Part shown: positions 4,435 to 18,532 of the stretch, one piece after another | Numbering within the stretch: position 1 is the first letter of the stretch | Layout: each line of letters opens with the position of its first letter | Virus record (IMG/VR): IMGVR_UViG_643348544_000004 | Strand: one strand, 5' to 3' | DNA: 44,988 bases | DNA from: a virus | Lineage: Duplodnaviria; Heunggongvirae; Uroviricota; Caudoviricetes | Notes under the pieces: generated by a model | What the model was told of the DNA's origin: nothing | Seen by the model: the letters and a program-made list of their open reading frames with translations, nothing else | The model's database searches: none | Program-made: the position numbers and the translations under genes

Positions 4435-4836
4435 CTTTAAAAAGGGCGGCAGAGCAGTCACGGAGTAAAACTGATACCGCCAAACGTCACCAGAAAATTG
4501 ATAACAGAGGGCGTTGCAGCGGGGTTGTCACTTAAGCGTATGGTCAACCTGACAACCCGGTGTCCTCAACGGGGAAGGAATAACCCCGCCATACTTACCG
4601 CCGCGCCATTTCGCGGGTTGCCACAACCGGAAGCGCACGGTCGACGAAAATTTAACGACAGGCTATCTATGAACCAGCTACCTCGCCGTGCGCTTTCGCT
4701 TTATGCCCTGACTTTTCAGGGACATATCCTTTCAGTAAACTGTCAGTGCCGGATGTTCACCCGTGTCCGGCGCACGCACTCCACCTGACCCGTGGAGAAC
4801 TCCTTAATTACCAACCTTAGCTTCGTTGGTTAGCTA

Positions 4837-11767: not shown

Positions 11768-11776
11768 AAAATTGAT
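11768..11776. repeat. IS1 target-site duplication, left copy (AAAATTGAT)
   Basis: Identical 9-mer directly abuts both IS1 ends. Confidence 0.85.
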
Positions 11777-11791
11777 GGTAATGACTCCAAC

Positions 11792-12295
11792 TTATTGATA
11801 GTGTTTTATGTTCAGATAATGCCCGATGACTTTGTCATGCAGCTCCACCGATTTTGAGAACGACAGCGACTTCCGTCCCAGCCGTGCCAGGTGCTGCCTC
11901 AGATTCAGGTTATGCCGCTCAATTCGCTGCGTATATCGCTTGCTGATTACGTGCAGCTTTCCCTTCAGGCGGGATTCATACAGCGGCCAGCCATCCGTCA
12001 TCCATATCACCACGTCAAAGGGTGACAGCAGGCTCATAAGACGCCCCAGCGTCGCCATCGTGCGTTCACCGAATACGTGCGCAACAACCGTCTTCCGGAG
12101 CCTGTCATACGCGTAAAACAGCCAGCGCTGGCGCGATTTAGCCCCGACATAGCCCCACTGTTCGTCCATTTCCGCGCAGACGATGACGTCACTGCCCGGC
12201 TGTATGCGCGAGGTTACCGACTGCGGCCTGAGTTTTTTAAGTGACGTAAAATCGTGTTGAGGCCAACGCCCATAATGCGGGCAGTTGCCCGGCAT
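11792..12295 (-). CDS. insB: IS1 InsB (transposase frame; expressed as InsAB' by -1 frameshift), 167 aa
   Basis: Canonical IS1 InsB sequence; overlaps insA 3' end. Confidence 0.9.
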
Positions 12296-12489
12296 CCAAC
12301 GCCATTCATGGCCATATCAATGATTTTCTGGTGCGTACCGGGTTGAGAAGCGGTGTAAGTGAACTGCAGTTGCCATGTTTTACGGCAGTGAGAGCAGAGA
12401 TAGCGCTGATGTCCGGCGGTGCTTTTGCCGTTACGCACCACCCCGTCAGTAGCTGAACAGGAGGGACAGCTGATAGAAACAGAAGCCAC
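12214..12489 (-). CDS. insA: IS1 InsA, 91 aa
   Basis: Sequence [43 protein letters not shown]... is canonical IS1 InsA. Confidence 0.9.
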
Positions 12490-12544
12490 TGGAGCACCTC
12501 AAAAACACCATCATACACTAAATCAGTAAGTTGGCAGCATCACC

Positions 12545-12553
12545 AAAATTGAT
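12545..12553. repeat. IS1 target-site duplication, right copy (AAAATTGAT)
   Basis: Identical 9-mer directly abuts both IS1 ends. Confidence 0.85.
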
Positions 12554-12774
12554 GTTTTGATATTAATGTTTGGACATATAAATGCCCTTTTTTTAGGGGT
12601 GTTCATGGCGGTCATGTGCATTGAATACTGGCGGTAAATACAGCGAACGCCATTGGTTTAGTTGGATATTTACTGTGCCGGACAAAAACGGTTTGCGGGG
12701 AAATCTTAGTTAAGTAGAATAACTGCGGGTGCTTGAGGCTATCTGTCTCAGGCATGAACACCAAAAGGCAGATA

Positions 12775-12846
12775 GAGAAAAGCCCCAGTTAACATTACGC
12801 GTCCTGCAAGACGCTTAACATTAATCTGAGGCCATATCTATGCGAC
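12775..12846 (-). ncRNA. Predicted Sok-like antisense RNA of the hok locus
   Basis: Minus-strand promoter-like -35 TTGACC (12876-12881) and -10 TAATCT (12852-12857) with 18-nt spacer, directing transcription antisense to the hok leader; hairpin plus T-rich tract downstream; prediction only. Confidence 0.3.
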
Positions 12847-12899
12847 ACATAGAGATTAGCCTCTTACGGACCGAAAGGTCAAGGAGAAGCAGGCTATGA
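12840..12899 (+). CDS. Short mok-like leader ORF overlapping hok start (19 codons)
   Basis: ATG at 12840, stop TGA at 12897-12899 overlapping the hok ATG (ATGA); shorter than canonical mok. Confidence 0.25.
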   Translation: MRHIEISLLRTERSRRSRL

Positions 12900-13051
12900 A
12901 GCAGCAAAAGGCGATGTTAATCGCCCTGATCGTCATCTGTTTAACCGTCATAGTGACGGCACTGGTAACGAGGAAAGACCTCTGCGAGGTACGAATCCGA
13001 ACCGGCCAGACGGAGGTCGCTGTCTTCACAGCTTACGAACCTGAGGAGTAA
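12896..13051 (+). CDS. hokD: Hok-family type I toxin (HokD/RelF-like), 51 aa
   Basis: Manual translation MKQQKAMLIALIVICLTVIVTALVTRKDLCEVRIRTGQTEVAVFTAYEPEE matches remembered HokD; below track cutoff. Confidence 0.8.
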   Translation: MKQQKAMLIALIVICLTVIVTALVTRKDLCEVRIRTGQTEVAVFTAYEPEE

Positions 13052-13120
13052 GAGACCCGGCGAGGGAGAAATCCCTCGCCACCTCTGATGTGGCAGGCAT
13101 TCTCAACGCACCCGCACTTA

Positions 13121-13150
13121 ACCCGCTTCGGCGGGTTTTTGTTTTTATTT
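13121..13150 (+). terminator. Rho-independent terminator after hok (ACCCGCTTCGGCGGGTTTTTGTTTTT)
   Basis: GC stem CCGC/GCGG with TTCG loop followed by T-run. Confidence 0.6.
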
Positions 13151-13267
13151 TCAACGCATTTGAAGTTCTGGACGGTGCCGGAATAGAATCAAAAATACTT
13201 AAGTAGCGCGCAGGGATAAGAGGGATGGTCCCTTAAAGGGGAGAGCTAATTATCCGGAAGGATTCTG

Positions 13268-13519
13268 ATGATGAACATCGAAGAACTGCGTAAAATTTTT
13301 TGTGAAGATGGCCTCTATGCTGTGTGCGTTGAAAATGGAAATATTGTTAGTCATTACCGCATTGTGTGTTTGCAAAAAAATGGGGCTGCGTTAATTAATT
13401 TTGTGGATGCCCGAGTGACGGACGGATTTATCTTGCGCGACGGTGAGTTTGTCACTTCATTACAGGTATTGAAAGAGATCGGAATAAAAGCTGGCTTTTC
13501 TGCTTTTTCAGAAGAATAA
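13268..13519 (+). CDS. Hypothetical phage protein, 83 aa
   Basis: ORF with GGAAGG RBS; no recognisable family. Confidence 0.4.
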   Translation: MMNIEELRKIFCEDGLYAVCVENGNIVSHYRIVCLQKNGAALINFVDARVTDGFILRDGEFVTSLQVLKEIGIKAGFSAFSEE

Positions 13520-17793: not shown

Positions 17794-17869
17794 GGCCCTT
17801 TAGCTCAGTGGTGAGAGCGAGCGACTCATAATCGCCAGGTCGCTGGTTCAAATCCAGCAAGGGCCACCA
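17794..17869 (+). tRNA. ileZ: tRNA with CAT anticodon, most likely tRNA-Ile2 (lysidine; ileX/ileZ-like)
   Basis: Cloverleaf folded by hand: acceptor GGCCCTT/AAGGGCC, anticodon loop CTCATAA, T-loop TTCAAAT, 3' CCA; close to remembered E. coli ileX. Confidence 0.75.
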
Positions 17870-17876
17870 TCACATA

Positions 17877-17953
17877 CCGCCATTAGCTCATCAGGAAAGA
17901 GCGCCAGCCTTCGAAGCTGGCTGCGCGGGGTTCAAGTCCCCGATGGCGGTCCA
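17877..17953 (+). tRNA. argN: tRNA-Arg (anticodon TCG)
   Basis: Acceptor CCGCCAT/ATGGCGG, anticodon loop CTTCGAA, T-arm GGGGTTCAAGTCCCC, 3' CCA; folded by hand. Confidence 0.65.
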
Positions 17954-17966
17954 TTATCTGCATCAT

Positions 17967-18043
17967 GCGTTGTTAGCTCAGCCGGACAGAGCAATTGCCT
18001 TCTAAGCAATCGGTCACTGGTTCGAATCCAGTACAACGCGCCA
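17967..18043 (+). tRNA. argO: tRNA-Arg (anticodon TCT)
   Basis: Acceptor GCGTTGT/ACAACGC, anticodon loop CTTCTAA, T-loop TTCGAAT, 3' CCA; folded by hand. Confidence 0.75.
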
Positions 18044-18532
18044 CACTTATTTTCCCTGGCTCGCTTTTGCGGGCCTTTTTTTTAAATGTCTCACAATTCA
18101 GACGGTTGACAGTTGTCTGTTTTGCGGGGAGTTTGTTAAAAGAAACTGGCATGGTGAATCCCCCTGTGCGGAGGGGCAATCAGCGAGTAGGTATATGGGA
18201 TAATCGCGGATTCAGGTGCTGGTACTGAATTCACCGGGAGGCACCCGGCACCATGCAATGGCACATAGCGCCACTCTCCAGCCCCTCTCCGGAGGGGCTT
18301 TCTTATGGACAAAAAAAGCCCGCGCTGGGAGACGCGGGCGGCAAGGAATAAACAATAAAACGTGAAGTAATATTTCAGCTGGCGAATAATACCCCATAGT
18401 AATCACTCTGCGCAACTGCGCGGTCTTTTTCGAATTGCGGGCTGTAGTCTCCCTTCTGCCATTGTCCTGTAACTTCCGGACTTCAGCCTGCTCCTTATCT
18501 GACTCACAACATTATCCCGCCCGGGAGGATTC

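What the first reader, a model, noticed from the sequence alone, without database searches (positions are those of the whole stretch)
12775..13150. hok/sok-like type I toxin-antitoxin locus without adjacent relBE
An intact 51-aa Hok-family toxin ORF (12896-13051) is preceded by a short overlapping leader ORF (12840-12899) and a minus-strand promoter-like element (-35 TTGACC, -10 TAATCT) positioned to make an antisense RNA across the leader. A strong terminator follows hok. In E. coli K-12 Qin, hokD is recalled to sit downstream of relBE, but here the upstream genes are different, so the toxin appears to depend on the antisense RNA alone.
Basis: partly seen in the sequence, partly recalled or inferred. 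Interest (0 to 1): 0.4.

Follow-up and report, generated by a model that had tools for sequence, protein, structure and literature searches.

The report
Intact hokD/sok toxin-antitoxin locus in prophage
This is an ordinary, complete copy of the well-known hok/sok RNA-controlled toxin-antitoxin module, sitting in a lambda-like E. coli prophage. The K-12 arrangement behind relBE is the rearranged form, not this one.

Summary
At 12896-13051 there is a 51-aa Hok ORF, 100% identical to E. coli K-12 HokD. It is preceded by a 19-codon leader ORF (12840-12899) whose TGA overlaps the hok ATG. It is followed by a stem-loop with a T-run (13120-13147).

On the minus strand, TTGACC-18 nt-TAATCT (12882-12853) sits where R1-type and 36 other hok loci place their Sok promoter. 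Downstream of it the minus strand folds into a conserved hairpin with a U-tail.

The real locus is larger than reported, about 12692-13147. It holds every sequence element of the plasmid R1 hok/sok paradigm:
- a hok promoter -10;
- a 5' tac element that pairs with a 3' fbi element;
- an anti-SD box that sequesters the mok SD;
- a protective 3' stem-loop.
Compensatory base changes across Escherichia, Kluyvera, Photorhabdus, Pantoea and Citrobacter support these structures.

No relBE is present anywhere in the window. In K-12, homology starts only 16 nt upstream of the hok ATG, so the K-12 copy has lost its regulatory region. Near-identical loci occur in about 1,100 complete E. coli genomes and in 79 sequenced phages, already annotated as hokD, MokW or "host killer".

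Verdict: already known, low interest. Minor variant features are the short ATGA-type mok and an extended Sok hairpin.

The parts
12692..12720 (+). Putative hok promoter: weak -35 (TTTGCG 12692-12697), 17-nt spacer, -10 TAGAAT 12715-12720, ending 6 nt before the predicted +1
   Evidence: Read. The -10 column is conserved as TAnnnT in almost all of 37 loci (TAGAAT, TACAAT, TATAAT, TATATT and others) at a fixed distance from GGGYGC. The generic scan did not flag it. The transcription start is inferred from the alignment to the R1-type 5' end and from position 1 of the Rfam model.
12727..13145 (+). Predicted full-length hok mRNA (about 420 nt)
   Evidence: MFE -167.7 kcal/mol, z = -8.1 against shuffles, closed by a 5'-3' stem. 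RNAalifold on 37 loci gives 65 consensus pairs, 20 of them with compensatory changes.
12727..12738 (+). tac element (GGGUGCUUGAGG), the 5' partner of fbi
   Evidence: Pair probability is about 1.0 with 13102-13113 and 0.57 for the outermost G-U pair with 13101. Pair 4 covaries: U-A in 23 loci, C-G in 11. GAGG/CCUC, GAGA/UCUC and GAAG/CUUC variants are visible.
12727..12898 (+). hok mRNA 5' leader matched by Rfam RF01794 ('sok')
   Evidence: 106.7 bits against a gathering score of 59, E = 1.5e-24, full model 1-157. The match is on the hok-sense strand and ends at the hok AUG.
12782..12787 (+). ucb / anti-SD box (GCCCCA) pairing with the mok SD
   Evidence: Pairs with 12827-12832 at p = 0.98-0.99 in the full-length RNA. 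The consensus pairs show A-U/G-C covariation, 25 versus 11.
12774..12848 (-). Predicted Sok antisense RNA (about 73 nt): 5' single-stranded tail, long hairpin 12786-12832, U-tail
   Evidence: dG -32.2 kcal/mol, z = -5.9. The consensus hairpin in 37 loci has 12 pairs, 5 with compensatory changes. The U-G and G-U pairs on this strand correspond to C.A and A.C mismatches on the sense strand. The ends are inferred, not measured.
12853..12882 (-). Putative Sok promoter: -35 TTGACC (12882->12877), 18-nt spacer, -10 TAATCT (12858->12853)
   Evidence: Same position as TTGCGC-17-TATCCT in an R1-type locus. -10 positions A2 and T6 are invariant, and the -35 TTG is invariant or nearly so, in 37 loci. The generic scan did not flag it. 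The region also encodes mok and the hok SD, so the conservation has more than one possible cause.
12828..12863 (+). mok translation-initiation / Sok-target hairpin (GAGG SD 12828-12831, AUG 12840, 5-nt loop CGACA)
   Evidence: Folds at -12.9 kcal/mol. Homologous hairpins exist in all 38 loci examined.
12840..12899 (+). mok-like leader ORF, 19 codons, with its UGA overlapping the hok AUG (AUGA)
   Evidence: The same frame-2 form occurs in L015 and L017. Other loci have mok in frame with hok or in the R1-type frame.
12883..12886 (+). hok Shine-Dalgarno (GGAG), 9 nt before the ATG
   Evidence: Read. CAAGGAG is nearly invariant in 37 loci.
12896..13051 (+). hokD toxin gene (51 aa)
   Evidence: Pfam PF01848 at 1.2e-23. 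PHROG 251 'MokW-like host killing' at 2.8e-33. 100% identical to K-12 HokD. RefSeq annotates the identical sequence as hokD.
13034..13037 (+). UACG motif at Tyr47 (TAC), the homologue of the reported TadA A-to-I editing site
   Evidence: TACGAA is invariant in all 37 loci. K-12 hokD mRNA is reported as 6% edited, recoding Tyr to Cys (PMC12214031). Editing at this locus was not tested.
13059..13080 (+). 3' stem-loop (GGCGAGGGA-GAAA-UCCCUCGCC), the likely 3' end protector of the processed mRNA
   Evidence: Present in the folds. The consensus stem covaries (columns 363-368 with 382-387). The equivalent R1 stem-loop protects the truncated mRNA (PMC9841398).
13101..13113 (+). fbi element (UCUCAACGCACCC), the 3' partner of tac, with one bulged C (13107)
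13120..13147 (+). Intrinsic terminator of hok mRNA (AACCCGC-TTCG-GCGGGTT plus T-run)
   Evidence: The fbi-then-terminator layout matches the R1-type locus.

Best explanation
This is a complete hok/sok-family type I toxin-antitoxin locus, the hokD allele, carried as a moron in the early-right region of a lambdoid (Qin-like) E. coli prophage.

Inferred mechanism, by homology with plasmid R1 hok/sok:
1. A weak promoter makes a stable hok mRNA of about 420 nt.
2. The 5' end of this mRNA (tac) pairs with a 3' element (fbi), and an anti-SD box (ucb) sequesters the mok ribosome-binding site. The full-length RNA therefore neither translates nor binds Sok.
3. Slow 3' trimming back to the 13059-13080 stem-loop removes fbi, and the 5' region refolds.
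4. Ribosomes can then translate the 19-codon mok leader, which delivers them to the hok start. Here this happens at an AUGA stop-start overlap.
5. The 51-aa membrane toxin is made.
6. A short unstable antisense RNA of about 73 nt (Sok), made from a conserved minus-strand promoter, pairs with the mok initiation region of the processed mRNA. This blocks mok and so hok translation, and triggers RNase III decay.
7. Cells that stop making Sok are killed.

What is shown here: every sequence and structure element is present, and the base pairs covary. What is inferred from R1: transcription, processing, coupling, toxicity, and the biological role (prophage retention or phage exclusion).
For: - Toxin: Pfam HOK_GEF 1.2e-23; protein identical to K-12 HokD.
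- Leader: Rfam RF01794 at 106.7 bits over the full model.
- Pairing: tac-fbi and ucb-SD are predicted at p about 0.99-1.0. The whole-mRNA fold has z = -8.1.
- Covariation: across 37 loci from 6 or more genera, 20 of 65 consensus pairs carry compensatory changes. These include tac-fbi, ucb-SD, the pairing that sequesters the hok AUG, and the 3' stem-loop.
- Sok: the Sok-strand hairpin with its U-tail is conserved, with 5 of 12 pairs compensatory, and it pairs better on the minus strand than on the sense strand.
- Sok promoter: its key positions are invariant in homologues and collinear with the R1-type locus.
- Leader ORF: open from an upstream ATG to at least the hok start in 37 of 38 loci.
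- Distribution: the same locus is widespread in E. coli genomes and in 79 phage records annotated MokW, host killer or phage maintenance.
Against: - There is no expression data for this allele. Neither promoter passes a generic consensus scan.
- Thermodynamic folding of the 3'-truncated RNA does not predict the open (tac-ucb) form. The same failure occurs for the R1-type control, so this is uninformative.
- The Sok-target loop is the shortest seen (5 nt) and lacks a YUNR U-turn motif, although 17 of 38 loci also lack one.
- One tac-fbi pair is G-U here rather than G-C.
- The chromosomal loci tested earlier (hokA, hokB, hokC) did not give post-segregational killing, as cited in bioRxiv 10.1101/2025.08.07.668861.
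Confidence: 0.85

Rival explanations
1. The locus looks intact but is a functionally silent relic. It would resemble the chromosomal hok loci reported not to mediate killing. The toxin would be effectively never expressed, for example because the 2-nt shorter target loop and frame-shifted mok impair coupling, or because the closed mRNA form is too stable with the extended ucb/SD hairpin.
For: - Chromosomal hokA, hokB and hokC gave no post-segregational killing or rifampicin activation (cited).
- The window allele has a 2-nt deletion in the loop relative to its nearest relatives, which changes the mok frame.
- The loop has no YUNR motif.
- An 18-nt insertion extends the hairpin that closes on the mok SD.
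- The in-silico truncated RNA keeps the SD paired at p about 0.8.
Against: - Every regulatory element is intact and the base pairs are maintained by compensatory changes across genera, which implies ongoing selection.
- The exact leader allele is found at 99% identity or more in 638 records.
- The frame-2 short mok arose independently in a hokC-type lineage (L015, L017).
- R1 data show that truncating mok after the hok start is harmless.
- The long-hairpin variant is shared by Escherichia and Kluyvera loci and itself covaries.
- The folding control fails for R1 too.
Confidence: 0.2
2. This reading is implied by the first reader. It treats the locus as an unusual derivative of the K-12 relBE-hokD operon that has lost relBE, leaving a toxin newly dependent on an antisense RNA.
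For: K-12 does have relB-relE-hokD-rem. The hokD and rem coding sequences and the 3' UTR are nearly identical between K-12 and the window.
Against: - The polarity is the reverse. The window's 170-nt leader is homologous along its whole length to leaders of hok loci in other genera and on R1-type plasmids.
- K-12's homology stops 16 nt upstream of the ATG, where relE sequence takes over.
- The literature describes K-12 hokD as the rearranged copy.
- Both arrangements are common: 1173 genomes carry the relE-hokD junction and 1140 carry the window-type flanks, out of 5426.
Confidence: 0.03
3. hokD is expressed mainly as a passenger of the prophage early-right (pR/nin-type) operon during induction. 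In that case it would act as a lysis or host-takeover accessory, with the local promoter and Sok control secondary.
For: hokD lies in the same orientation as the flanking replication, nin-like, rusA and Q-antiterminator genes. PHROGs files the family under 'moron, auxiliary metabolic gene and host takeover'.
Against: - The locus carries its own conserved -10, a defined 5' end that must be terminal-proximal for tac-fbi closure, and its own terminator.
- The same cassette works autonomously on plasmids (R1 literature).
- In this window an IS1 lies between the upstream phage genes and the locus.
Confidence: 0.1

Closest known systems
hok/sok (parB) of plasmid R1 and R1-type IncF plasmids
   Same: The element order is the same: hok promoter, tac, ucb, mok SD/AUG with an overlapping antisense Sok gene, hok SD, hok, UACG site, 3' stem-loop, fbi, terminator. 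The loci are collinear in a pairwise alignment. Both match the same Rfam and Pfam families.
   Different: - Nucleotide similarity is confined to the conserved elements. In the R1-type locus used for comparison the Hok ORF is 52 aa; its divergence from HokD was not quantified.
- mok here is 19 codons ending in AUGA, against 70 codons overlapping hok in R1.
- The Sok promoter spacer is 18 nt rather than 17 nt.
- The Sok hairpin is lengthened by an insertion of about 18 nt, giving about 73 nt here (R1 Sok is about 64 nt, recalled, not checked here).
- The locus is on a prophage, not a plasmid.
E. coli K-12 hokD (relF), third gene of the relBEF operon in cryptic prophage Qin
   Same: The Hok protein and coding DNA are identical. 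The 3' UTR with fbi and terminator is nearly identical. The downstream neighbour rem is the same, and the prophage context is the same type.
   Different: K-12 keeps only 16 nt upstream of the ATG (the hok SD). The hok promoter, tac, ucb, mok and the Sok gene are replaced by relE. The window has the complete regulatory region and no relBE.
Chromosomal hokC/mokC/sokC (gef) and related hokA/B/E loci of Escherichia
   Same: They share the family, the leader architecture and the covarying pairs. Insertion sequences sit close to these loci, for example IS186 after hokC in the K-12-like L016.
   Different: - The Hok protein is about 80% identical.
- The Sok hairpin is short, without the insertion.
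- mok is usually in frame with hok, giving an N-terminally extended Hok.
- The IS here (IS1) lies 183 nt upstream of the mRNA start rather than downstream.
Phage-borne 'MokW / host killer / gef phage maintenance' genes (PHROG 251) of lambdoid and Stx-converting phages
   Same: The whole 461-nt locus is 89-96% identical in 79 phage records, including mEp460-like phages, Stx2a phages and Rac. PHROG 251 matches at 2.8e-33.
   Different: These are allelic differences only, mainly in the Sok-target loop and the resulting mok frame.

Membership tests
[quoted passage not shown] | Hok/Gef toxin ORF of about 50 aa (PF01848) | tested here: met
   82.9 bits against a cut-off of 22, E = 1.2e-23. Identical to K-12 HokD. 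The NCBIfam Hok models hit but below their curated cut-offs (48.5 against 73).
[quoted passage not shown] | Conserved structured hok mRNA 5' leader (Rfam RF01794) | tested here: met
   106.7 bits against a gathering score of 59, full-length model, on the hok-sense strand.
[quoted passage not shown] | Upstream leader ORF (mok) with its own SD, whose translation reaches the hok initiation region | tested here: met
   GAGG at 12828-12831, ATG at 12840, open through to the hok ATG, with the UGA overlapping it. Translational coupling itself was not tested.
[quoted passage not shown] | Cis-encoded antisense RNA gene (Sok) overlapping the mok initiation region: promoter, 5' tail, terminator hairpin | tested here: met
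   The hairpin with U-tail has z = -5.9. It is conserved, with compensatory changes and strand-specific G-U pairs. The key promoter positions are invariant in 37 loci. The promoter is weak by a generic scan. The transcript itself cannot be tested here.
[quoted passage not shown] | Long-range 5'-3' fold-back (tac-fbi) closing the full-length mRNA | tested here: met
   A 12-bp stem with one bulge, p about 1.0 for 11 of the 12 pairs and 0.57 for the outermost G-U pair. It shows U-A/C-G covariation, 23 versus 11.
[quoted passage not shown] | Anti-SD (ucb) sequestering the mok SD in the full-length mRNA | tested here: met
   12782-12787 pairs with 12827-12832 at p = 0.98-0.99. The pairs covary.
[quoted passage not shown] | 3' processing followed by refolding to a translatable, Sok-accessible form | tested here: inconclusive
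   The 3' protective stem-loop (13059-13080) and tac/ucb complementarity exist. RNAfold does not predict the switch for this locus, nor for the R1-type control.
[quoted passage not shown] | Toxicity of Hok, RNase III cleavage of the duplex, post-segregational killing | not testable with these tools
   Requires experiments.
relBEF operon arrangement (K-12 Qin) | relB and relE immediately upstream of hokD, co-transcribed with it, and no hok leader | tested here: not met
   tblastn finds no RelB or RelE match in the window. The upstream sequence is the canonical hok leader, not relE.

The most novel reading that the evidence does not exclude
Two small variant features might carry new biology.

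1. The mok leader. Across the family it is found in all three reading frames relative to hok. In this allele, and independently in a hokC-type lineage, it is a minimal 19-codon ORF that stops on the hok start codon (AUGA). Hok synthesis here would then work by termination-reinitiation rather than by read-through unfolding.

2. Sequence variability. Within closely related groups of loci, the most variable 10-nt segment is the part of the mRNA that pairs with the Sok 5' tail (12833-12850). This could reflect diversifying selection that keeps the up to nine co-resident hok/sok paralogues of one genome from cross-reacting.
Probability: 0.3. Interest if true: 0.3.

Novelty: already known. Interest (0 to 1): 0.12.

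Why it matters
It matters little for discovery. The locus is a textbook hok/sok module, and the identical sequence is already annotated as hokD in hundreds of RefSeq genomes and as MokW or host-killer genes in phages.

Its practical value is as a reference. It shows what an unrearranged hokD locus looks like, with coordinates for every regulatory element. This makes clear that K-12's relBE-hokD is the truncated form, and that genome annotation lists only the toxin CDS and omits Sok, mok and the mRNA elements.

Tried and rejected
- Generic promoter scan. It flagged neither the Sok nor the hok promoter, so both rest on homology and conservation only.
- Folding of the 3'-truncated mRNA to see the tac-ucb 'open' switch. 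The switch was not predicted. The experimentally validated R1-type RNA fails in the same way, so the test is uninformative.
- YUNR U-turn motif in the Sok-target loop. It is absent here but also absent in 17 of 38 loci, so it does not discriminate.
- Sub-threshold Rfam hits overlapping the hok 3' UTR: isrK at 26.6 bits against 50 and rsmX at 21.5 against 56. I treated these as chance matches to two hairpins plus a terminator.
- NCBIfam Hok models score below their curated cut-offs. I did not use them for membership.
- Column-wise covariation for tac-fbi pairs 7-12 was not attempted. The bulged C shifts the register between the Escherichia and Photorhabdus rows, so those pairs were only inspected by eye.
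- Steif & Meyer 2012 ('The hok mRNA family') could not be read, and a guessed PMC id was a different paper. Pedersen & Gerdes 1999 is cited only through PMC12214031 and the 2026 preprint.
- The idea that the 9-nt TTAACATTA repeat flanking the 17-nt insert is an IS scar was dropped. The two copies pair with each other through G-U pairs in the Sok hairpin.

Full report
**Observation**

The region was read directly and its ORFs listed. A 51-aa ORF at 12896-13051 (+) encodes MKQQKAMLIALIVICLTVIVTALVTRKDLCEVRIRTGQTEVAVFTAYEPEE. It matches Pfam HOK_GEF (E = 1.2e-23, 82.9 bits against a cut-off of 22) and PHROG 251 'MokW-like host killing' (2.8e-33). It is 100% identical to E. coli K-12 HokD.

The leader ORF is real. 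Its ATG is at 12840, it runs for 19 codons, and its TGA at 12897-12899 overlaps the hok ATG as ATGA. A GAGG Shine-Dalgarno lies at 12828-12831.

The terminator at 13120-13137 plus a T-run is the only terminator-like site the scan found in 12500-13300. That scan did not call the antisense promoter, because its -10 matches the consensus at only 3 of 6 positions. Taken alone the promoter is no better than chance, and its credibility comes from comparison with other loci.

**Context**

The window is a lambdoid, Qin-like E. coli prophage. It holds:
- dicB/DicF-type immunity-region genes (DicF at 4444-4495, minus strand);
- replication genes;
- hokD followed by rem, a DUF968 gene, rusA and a Q antiterminator;
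- a tRNA cluster;
- lysis and lambda-like structural genes.

The 701 nt around hokD are 100% identical to many RefSeq chromosomes. There only the toxin CDS is annotated, as 'type I toxin-antitoxin system toxin HokD'.

Just upstream lies an IS1 at 11777-12544, with insA on the minus strand (Pfam). It is flanked by a 9-bp target duplication, AAAATTGAT, at 11768-11776 and 12545-12553. Strain AR_0013 has the uninterrupted site. The IS1 ends 183 nt upstream of the predicted hok mRNA start, and its transposase is transcribed away from hok.

**Anatomy**

Rfam RF01794 ('sok') matches 12727-12898 with the full model at 106.7 bits (gathering score 59). The match is on the plus strand and ends at the hok AUG. 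What it recognises is therefore the hok mRNA leader, which contains the complement of Sok.

An R1-type IncFII locus was retrieved by searching with the R1 Hok sequence recalled from memory; it encodes that protein exactly. The alignment to it is collinear element by element:
- GGGUGCUUGAGGCU against GGCGCUUGAGGCU at the 5' end;
- GGCAGAnAGA...AGCCCC;
- the UAGCCUCUUAC and CAAGGAGAAG blocks;
- GCUUACGAA;
- a 3' G+C stem-loop;
- a sequence complementary to the 5' end;
- the terminator.

On this basis the hok mRNA is predicted to start at 12727, 6 nt after a -10 TAGAAT (12715-12720), and to end at about 13145.

**Structure**

The 419-nt RNA folds at -167.7 kcal/mol with z = -8.1. It is closed by a 12-bp stem between 12727-12738 (tac) and 13101-13113 (fbi, with one bulged C). 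Base-pair probabilities are about 1.0 for 11 of these pairs and 0.57 for the outermost G-U pair. GCCCCA at 12782-12787 (ucb, the anti-SD) pairs with the mok SD region 12827-12832 at p = 0.98-0.99.

I fetched 53 loci from species-representative genomes using HokD and aligned 36 of them, plus the R1-type locus, with the window. RNAalifold gives 65 consensus pairs, 20 of which carry compensatory double changes:
- tac-fbi pair 4: U-A in 23 loci and C-G in 11;
- ucb-SD stem: A-U in 25 and G-C in 11;
- a pairing that buries the hok AUG against the 3' part of the CDS: C-G 15 and U-A 13 at one pair; A-U 14, G-C 10 and G-U 10 at another;
- the 3' stem-loop at 13059-13080.

An invariant 7-bp pairing also joins CUCUUAC (12861-12867) to GUAAGAG (13048-13054).

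**The antisense RNA**

On the minus strand, the sequence from about 12848 to 12774 folds into a 5' tail, a long hairpin and a UUUUCUCU tail (-32.2 kcal/mol, z = -5.9). Across the 37 loci this hairpin is conserved, with 5 of 12 pairs compensatory. One pair is U-G in 36 of 37 loci and another is G-U in 11. On the sense strand these same positions are C.A and A.C mismatches. The helix is therefore better formed in the antisense transcript, which argues that the minus strand is a functional RNA.

The promoter upstream of it is conserved. -10 positions 2 (A) and 6 (T) are invariant in all 37 loci, including the R1-type locus. The TTG of the -35 is invariant or nearly so. The hexamers are TTGACC or TTGCCT, followed by 17-18 nt, followed by TAATCT, TAACCT, TATCCT or CACTCT. 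These bases also encode mok and the hok SD, so the constraint is shared.

**Comparison with K-12**

K-12 has relB-relE-hokD-rem. In the alignment, identity between K-12 and the window begins at AGGAGAAGCAGGCTATG, 16 nt upstream of the ATG. From there it continues through the CDS, fbi, the terminator and on into rem. Upstream of that point K-12 has relE.

K-12 hokD therefore lacks the hok promoter, tac, ucb, mok, and the Sok -10 and RNA body. This agrees with the literature, which describes K-12 hokD as inactivated by rearrangement and hokA, hokC and hokE as inactivated by IS elements (PMC12214031). No RelB or RelE homologue exists anywhere in the window.

In 5426 complete E. coli genomes:
- 1173 carry the relE-hokD junction;
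- 1140 carry the window-type 701-nt region;
- 4272 carry some leader of this type at 80% coverage or more;
- the leader (12700-12900) is 99% or more identical in 638 records.

The whole locus is also present at 89-96% identity in 79 sequenced phages. These include mEp460-like phages, Stx2a-converting phages and Rac, annotated as 'MokW', 'host killer protein', 'mok/hok' or 'gef: phage maintenance protein'. It also occurs on roughly 95-kb non-mobilizable plasmids. Reviews already note up to 12 hok/sok copies per E. coli genome, many of them intact (PMC4147584). A 2026 preprint shows that hok is enriched in prophages.

**Variant features**

1. mok frame. Across 37 loci the leader ATG lies 56, 57 or 58 nt upstream of the hok ATG.
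   - At 57 nt the ORF is in frame with hok, giving an N-terminally extended Hok. This is the commonest form.
   - At 58 nt the ORF is the R1-type overlapping frame of 55-69 codons.
   - At 56 nt the ORF has 19 codons ending in AUGA. This form is seen in the window and independently in hokC-type loci of E. ruysiae and E. whittamii.
   
   The window reaches the 56-nt frame through a 2-nt shorter loop just after the ATG. R1 mutagenesis shows that mok must be translated up to the hok initiation region but not beyond it (PMC9841398). The short form is therefore expected to work.

2. Extended hairpin. hokD-type loci of Escherichia and Kluyvera carry an insertion of about 18 nt (12797-12814) that extends the Sok hairpin. 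The insertion itself covaries.

3. Target loop. The Sok-target loop here is 5 nt (CGACA) and lacks a YUNR motif. So do 17 of 38 loci.

4. Variability. Within closely related groups of loci, the most variable 10-nt windows map to 12833-12850, the region that pairs with the Sok 5' tail.

**Mechanism**

By homology with R1, the full-length mRNA is inert because of tac-fbi closure and SD sequestration. 3' trimming back to the 13059-13080 stem-loop permits refolding. mok translation then delivers ribosomes to hok. Sok blocks mok initiation and triggers RNase III decay.

I tried to reproduce the refolding in silico. The truncated RNA keeps the SD paired, but the R1-type control behaves the same way, so the test cannot discriminate.

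Function is not shown here. It could be prophage retention, phage exclusion or nothing. The chromosomal hok loci tested previously did not give post-segregational killing.

**Verdict**

The thing itself is a standard, already annotated member of one of the best-studied toxin-antitoxin families. The apparent oddity, the absence of relBE, is the normal state.

Noticed in passing
window 11777-12544 (IS1); duplications 11768-11776 and 12545-12553; split ORF from 11681: An IS1 (insA/insB on the minus strand) with a perfect 9-bp target duplication (AAAATTGAT) sits 183 nt upstream of the hok mRNA start. It splits an unannotated 59-aa hydrophobic ORF (MKNALQFLFVAFWLFASCMPIIFTARYMEKIDVLILMFGHINALFLGVFMAVMCIEYWR, good SD). 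That ORF is intact in strain AR_0013 and has no NCBIfam or PHROG match. An IS1 at this position covers 80% or more of the query in only 11 of 5426 genomes.
   Followed up: partly
window 12840-12899; loci L004-L049: The mok leader ORF occurs in all three frames relative to hok across 37 loci: in frame as an extended Hok, in the R1-type overlapping frame, or as 19 codons ending in AUGA. The AUGA form arose at least twice (the window; L015 and L017). L031 (Kluyvera ascorbata) has ATA in place of the mok ATG.
   Followed up: yes
window 12833-12850: Within groups of closely related hok loci (hokD-type, hokC-type, Photorhabdus), the most variable 10-nt stretch is the mok SD-AUG spacer or loop that pairs with the Sok 5' tail. 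This could be relaxed constraint, or selection against cross-talk among paralogues. The samples are small (6-12 loci per group).
   Followed up: partly
L028 (Kluyvera sp. CHPC 1.2972), L007 (K-12-like E. coli), L002: The relE-hok junction sequence (...GCGTTGACAG) is also found in a Kluyvera genome upstream of a different hok, only 70% identical to HokD. The relBE-hok module is therefore not a K-12 accident. It is present in 1173 of 5426 E. coli genomes.
   Followed up: partly
window 13033-13039 (UUACGAA; Tyr47 codon TAC 13034-13036): TACGAA is invariant in all 37 aligned hok loci, including the R1-type locus. This is the TadA UACG motif, whose A-to-I editing recodes Tyr to Cys in K-12 hokC, hokD and hokE transcripts (PMC12214031).
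   Followed up: partly
window 12727-12898: The Rfam family RF01794, named 'sok antitoxin', matches the hok-sense strand and ends at the hok AUG. A hit therefore marks the hok mRNA leader, not the strand of the antitoxin RNA.
   Followed up: yes
window 12797-12814 and homologous positions in L004-L013, L024, L026, L029-L032: An insertion of about 18 nt forms an extra helical segment at the tip of the Sok hairpin. It is flanked by TTAACATTA copies that pair with each other through G-U on the Sok strand. It is present in hokD-type Escherichia and Kluyvera loci and absent from hokC-type, Photorhabdus and R1-type loci.
   Followed up: partly
L018 (Acinetobacter idrijaensis, 275-bp contig), L023 (Xanthomonas pisi, 431-bp contig), H38 (Klebsiella oxytoca 9.5-kb 'plasmid'), H96 (Actinobacillus phage vB_Apl-pPE4): E. 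coli-type hokD sequence (94.7-100% identical) turns up in records assigned to unrelated hosts, mostly on tiny contigs. These are probably contamination or mis-assignment.
   Followed up: no
L006, L016, L046, L048: Examples of decayed hok loci:
- L006 has a mutated tac (GACTGCATGTGG).
- L016 has an IS186 end right after the 3' stem-loop, as in K-12 hokC.
- L046 (Photorhabdus) has its leader replaced upstream of the hok SD.
- L048 (Shigella flexneri) has a frameshifted hok.
   Followed up: no
window 4444-4495 (-), 17794-18043 (+), 18120-18310 (+): Other RNA genes in the prophage: DicF sRNA (76.7 bits), a tRNA-Met/Arg/Arg cluster, and STnc100 (139.2 bits) downstream of the Q antiterminator region.
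   Followed up: no
window 13060-13141: A weak isrK-like Rfam match (26.6 bits, below the gathering score of 50) overlaps the hok 3' UTR hairpins and terminator. It is probably a chance structural resemblance.
   Followed up: no
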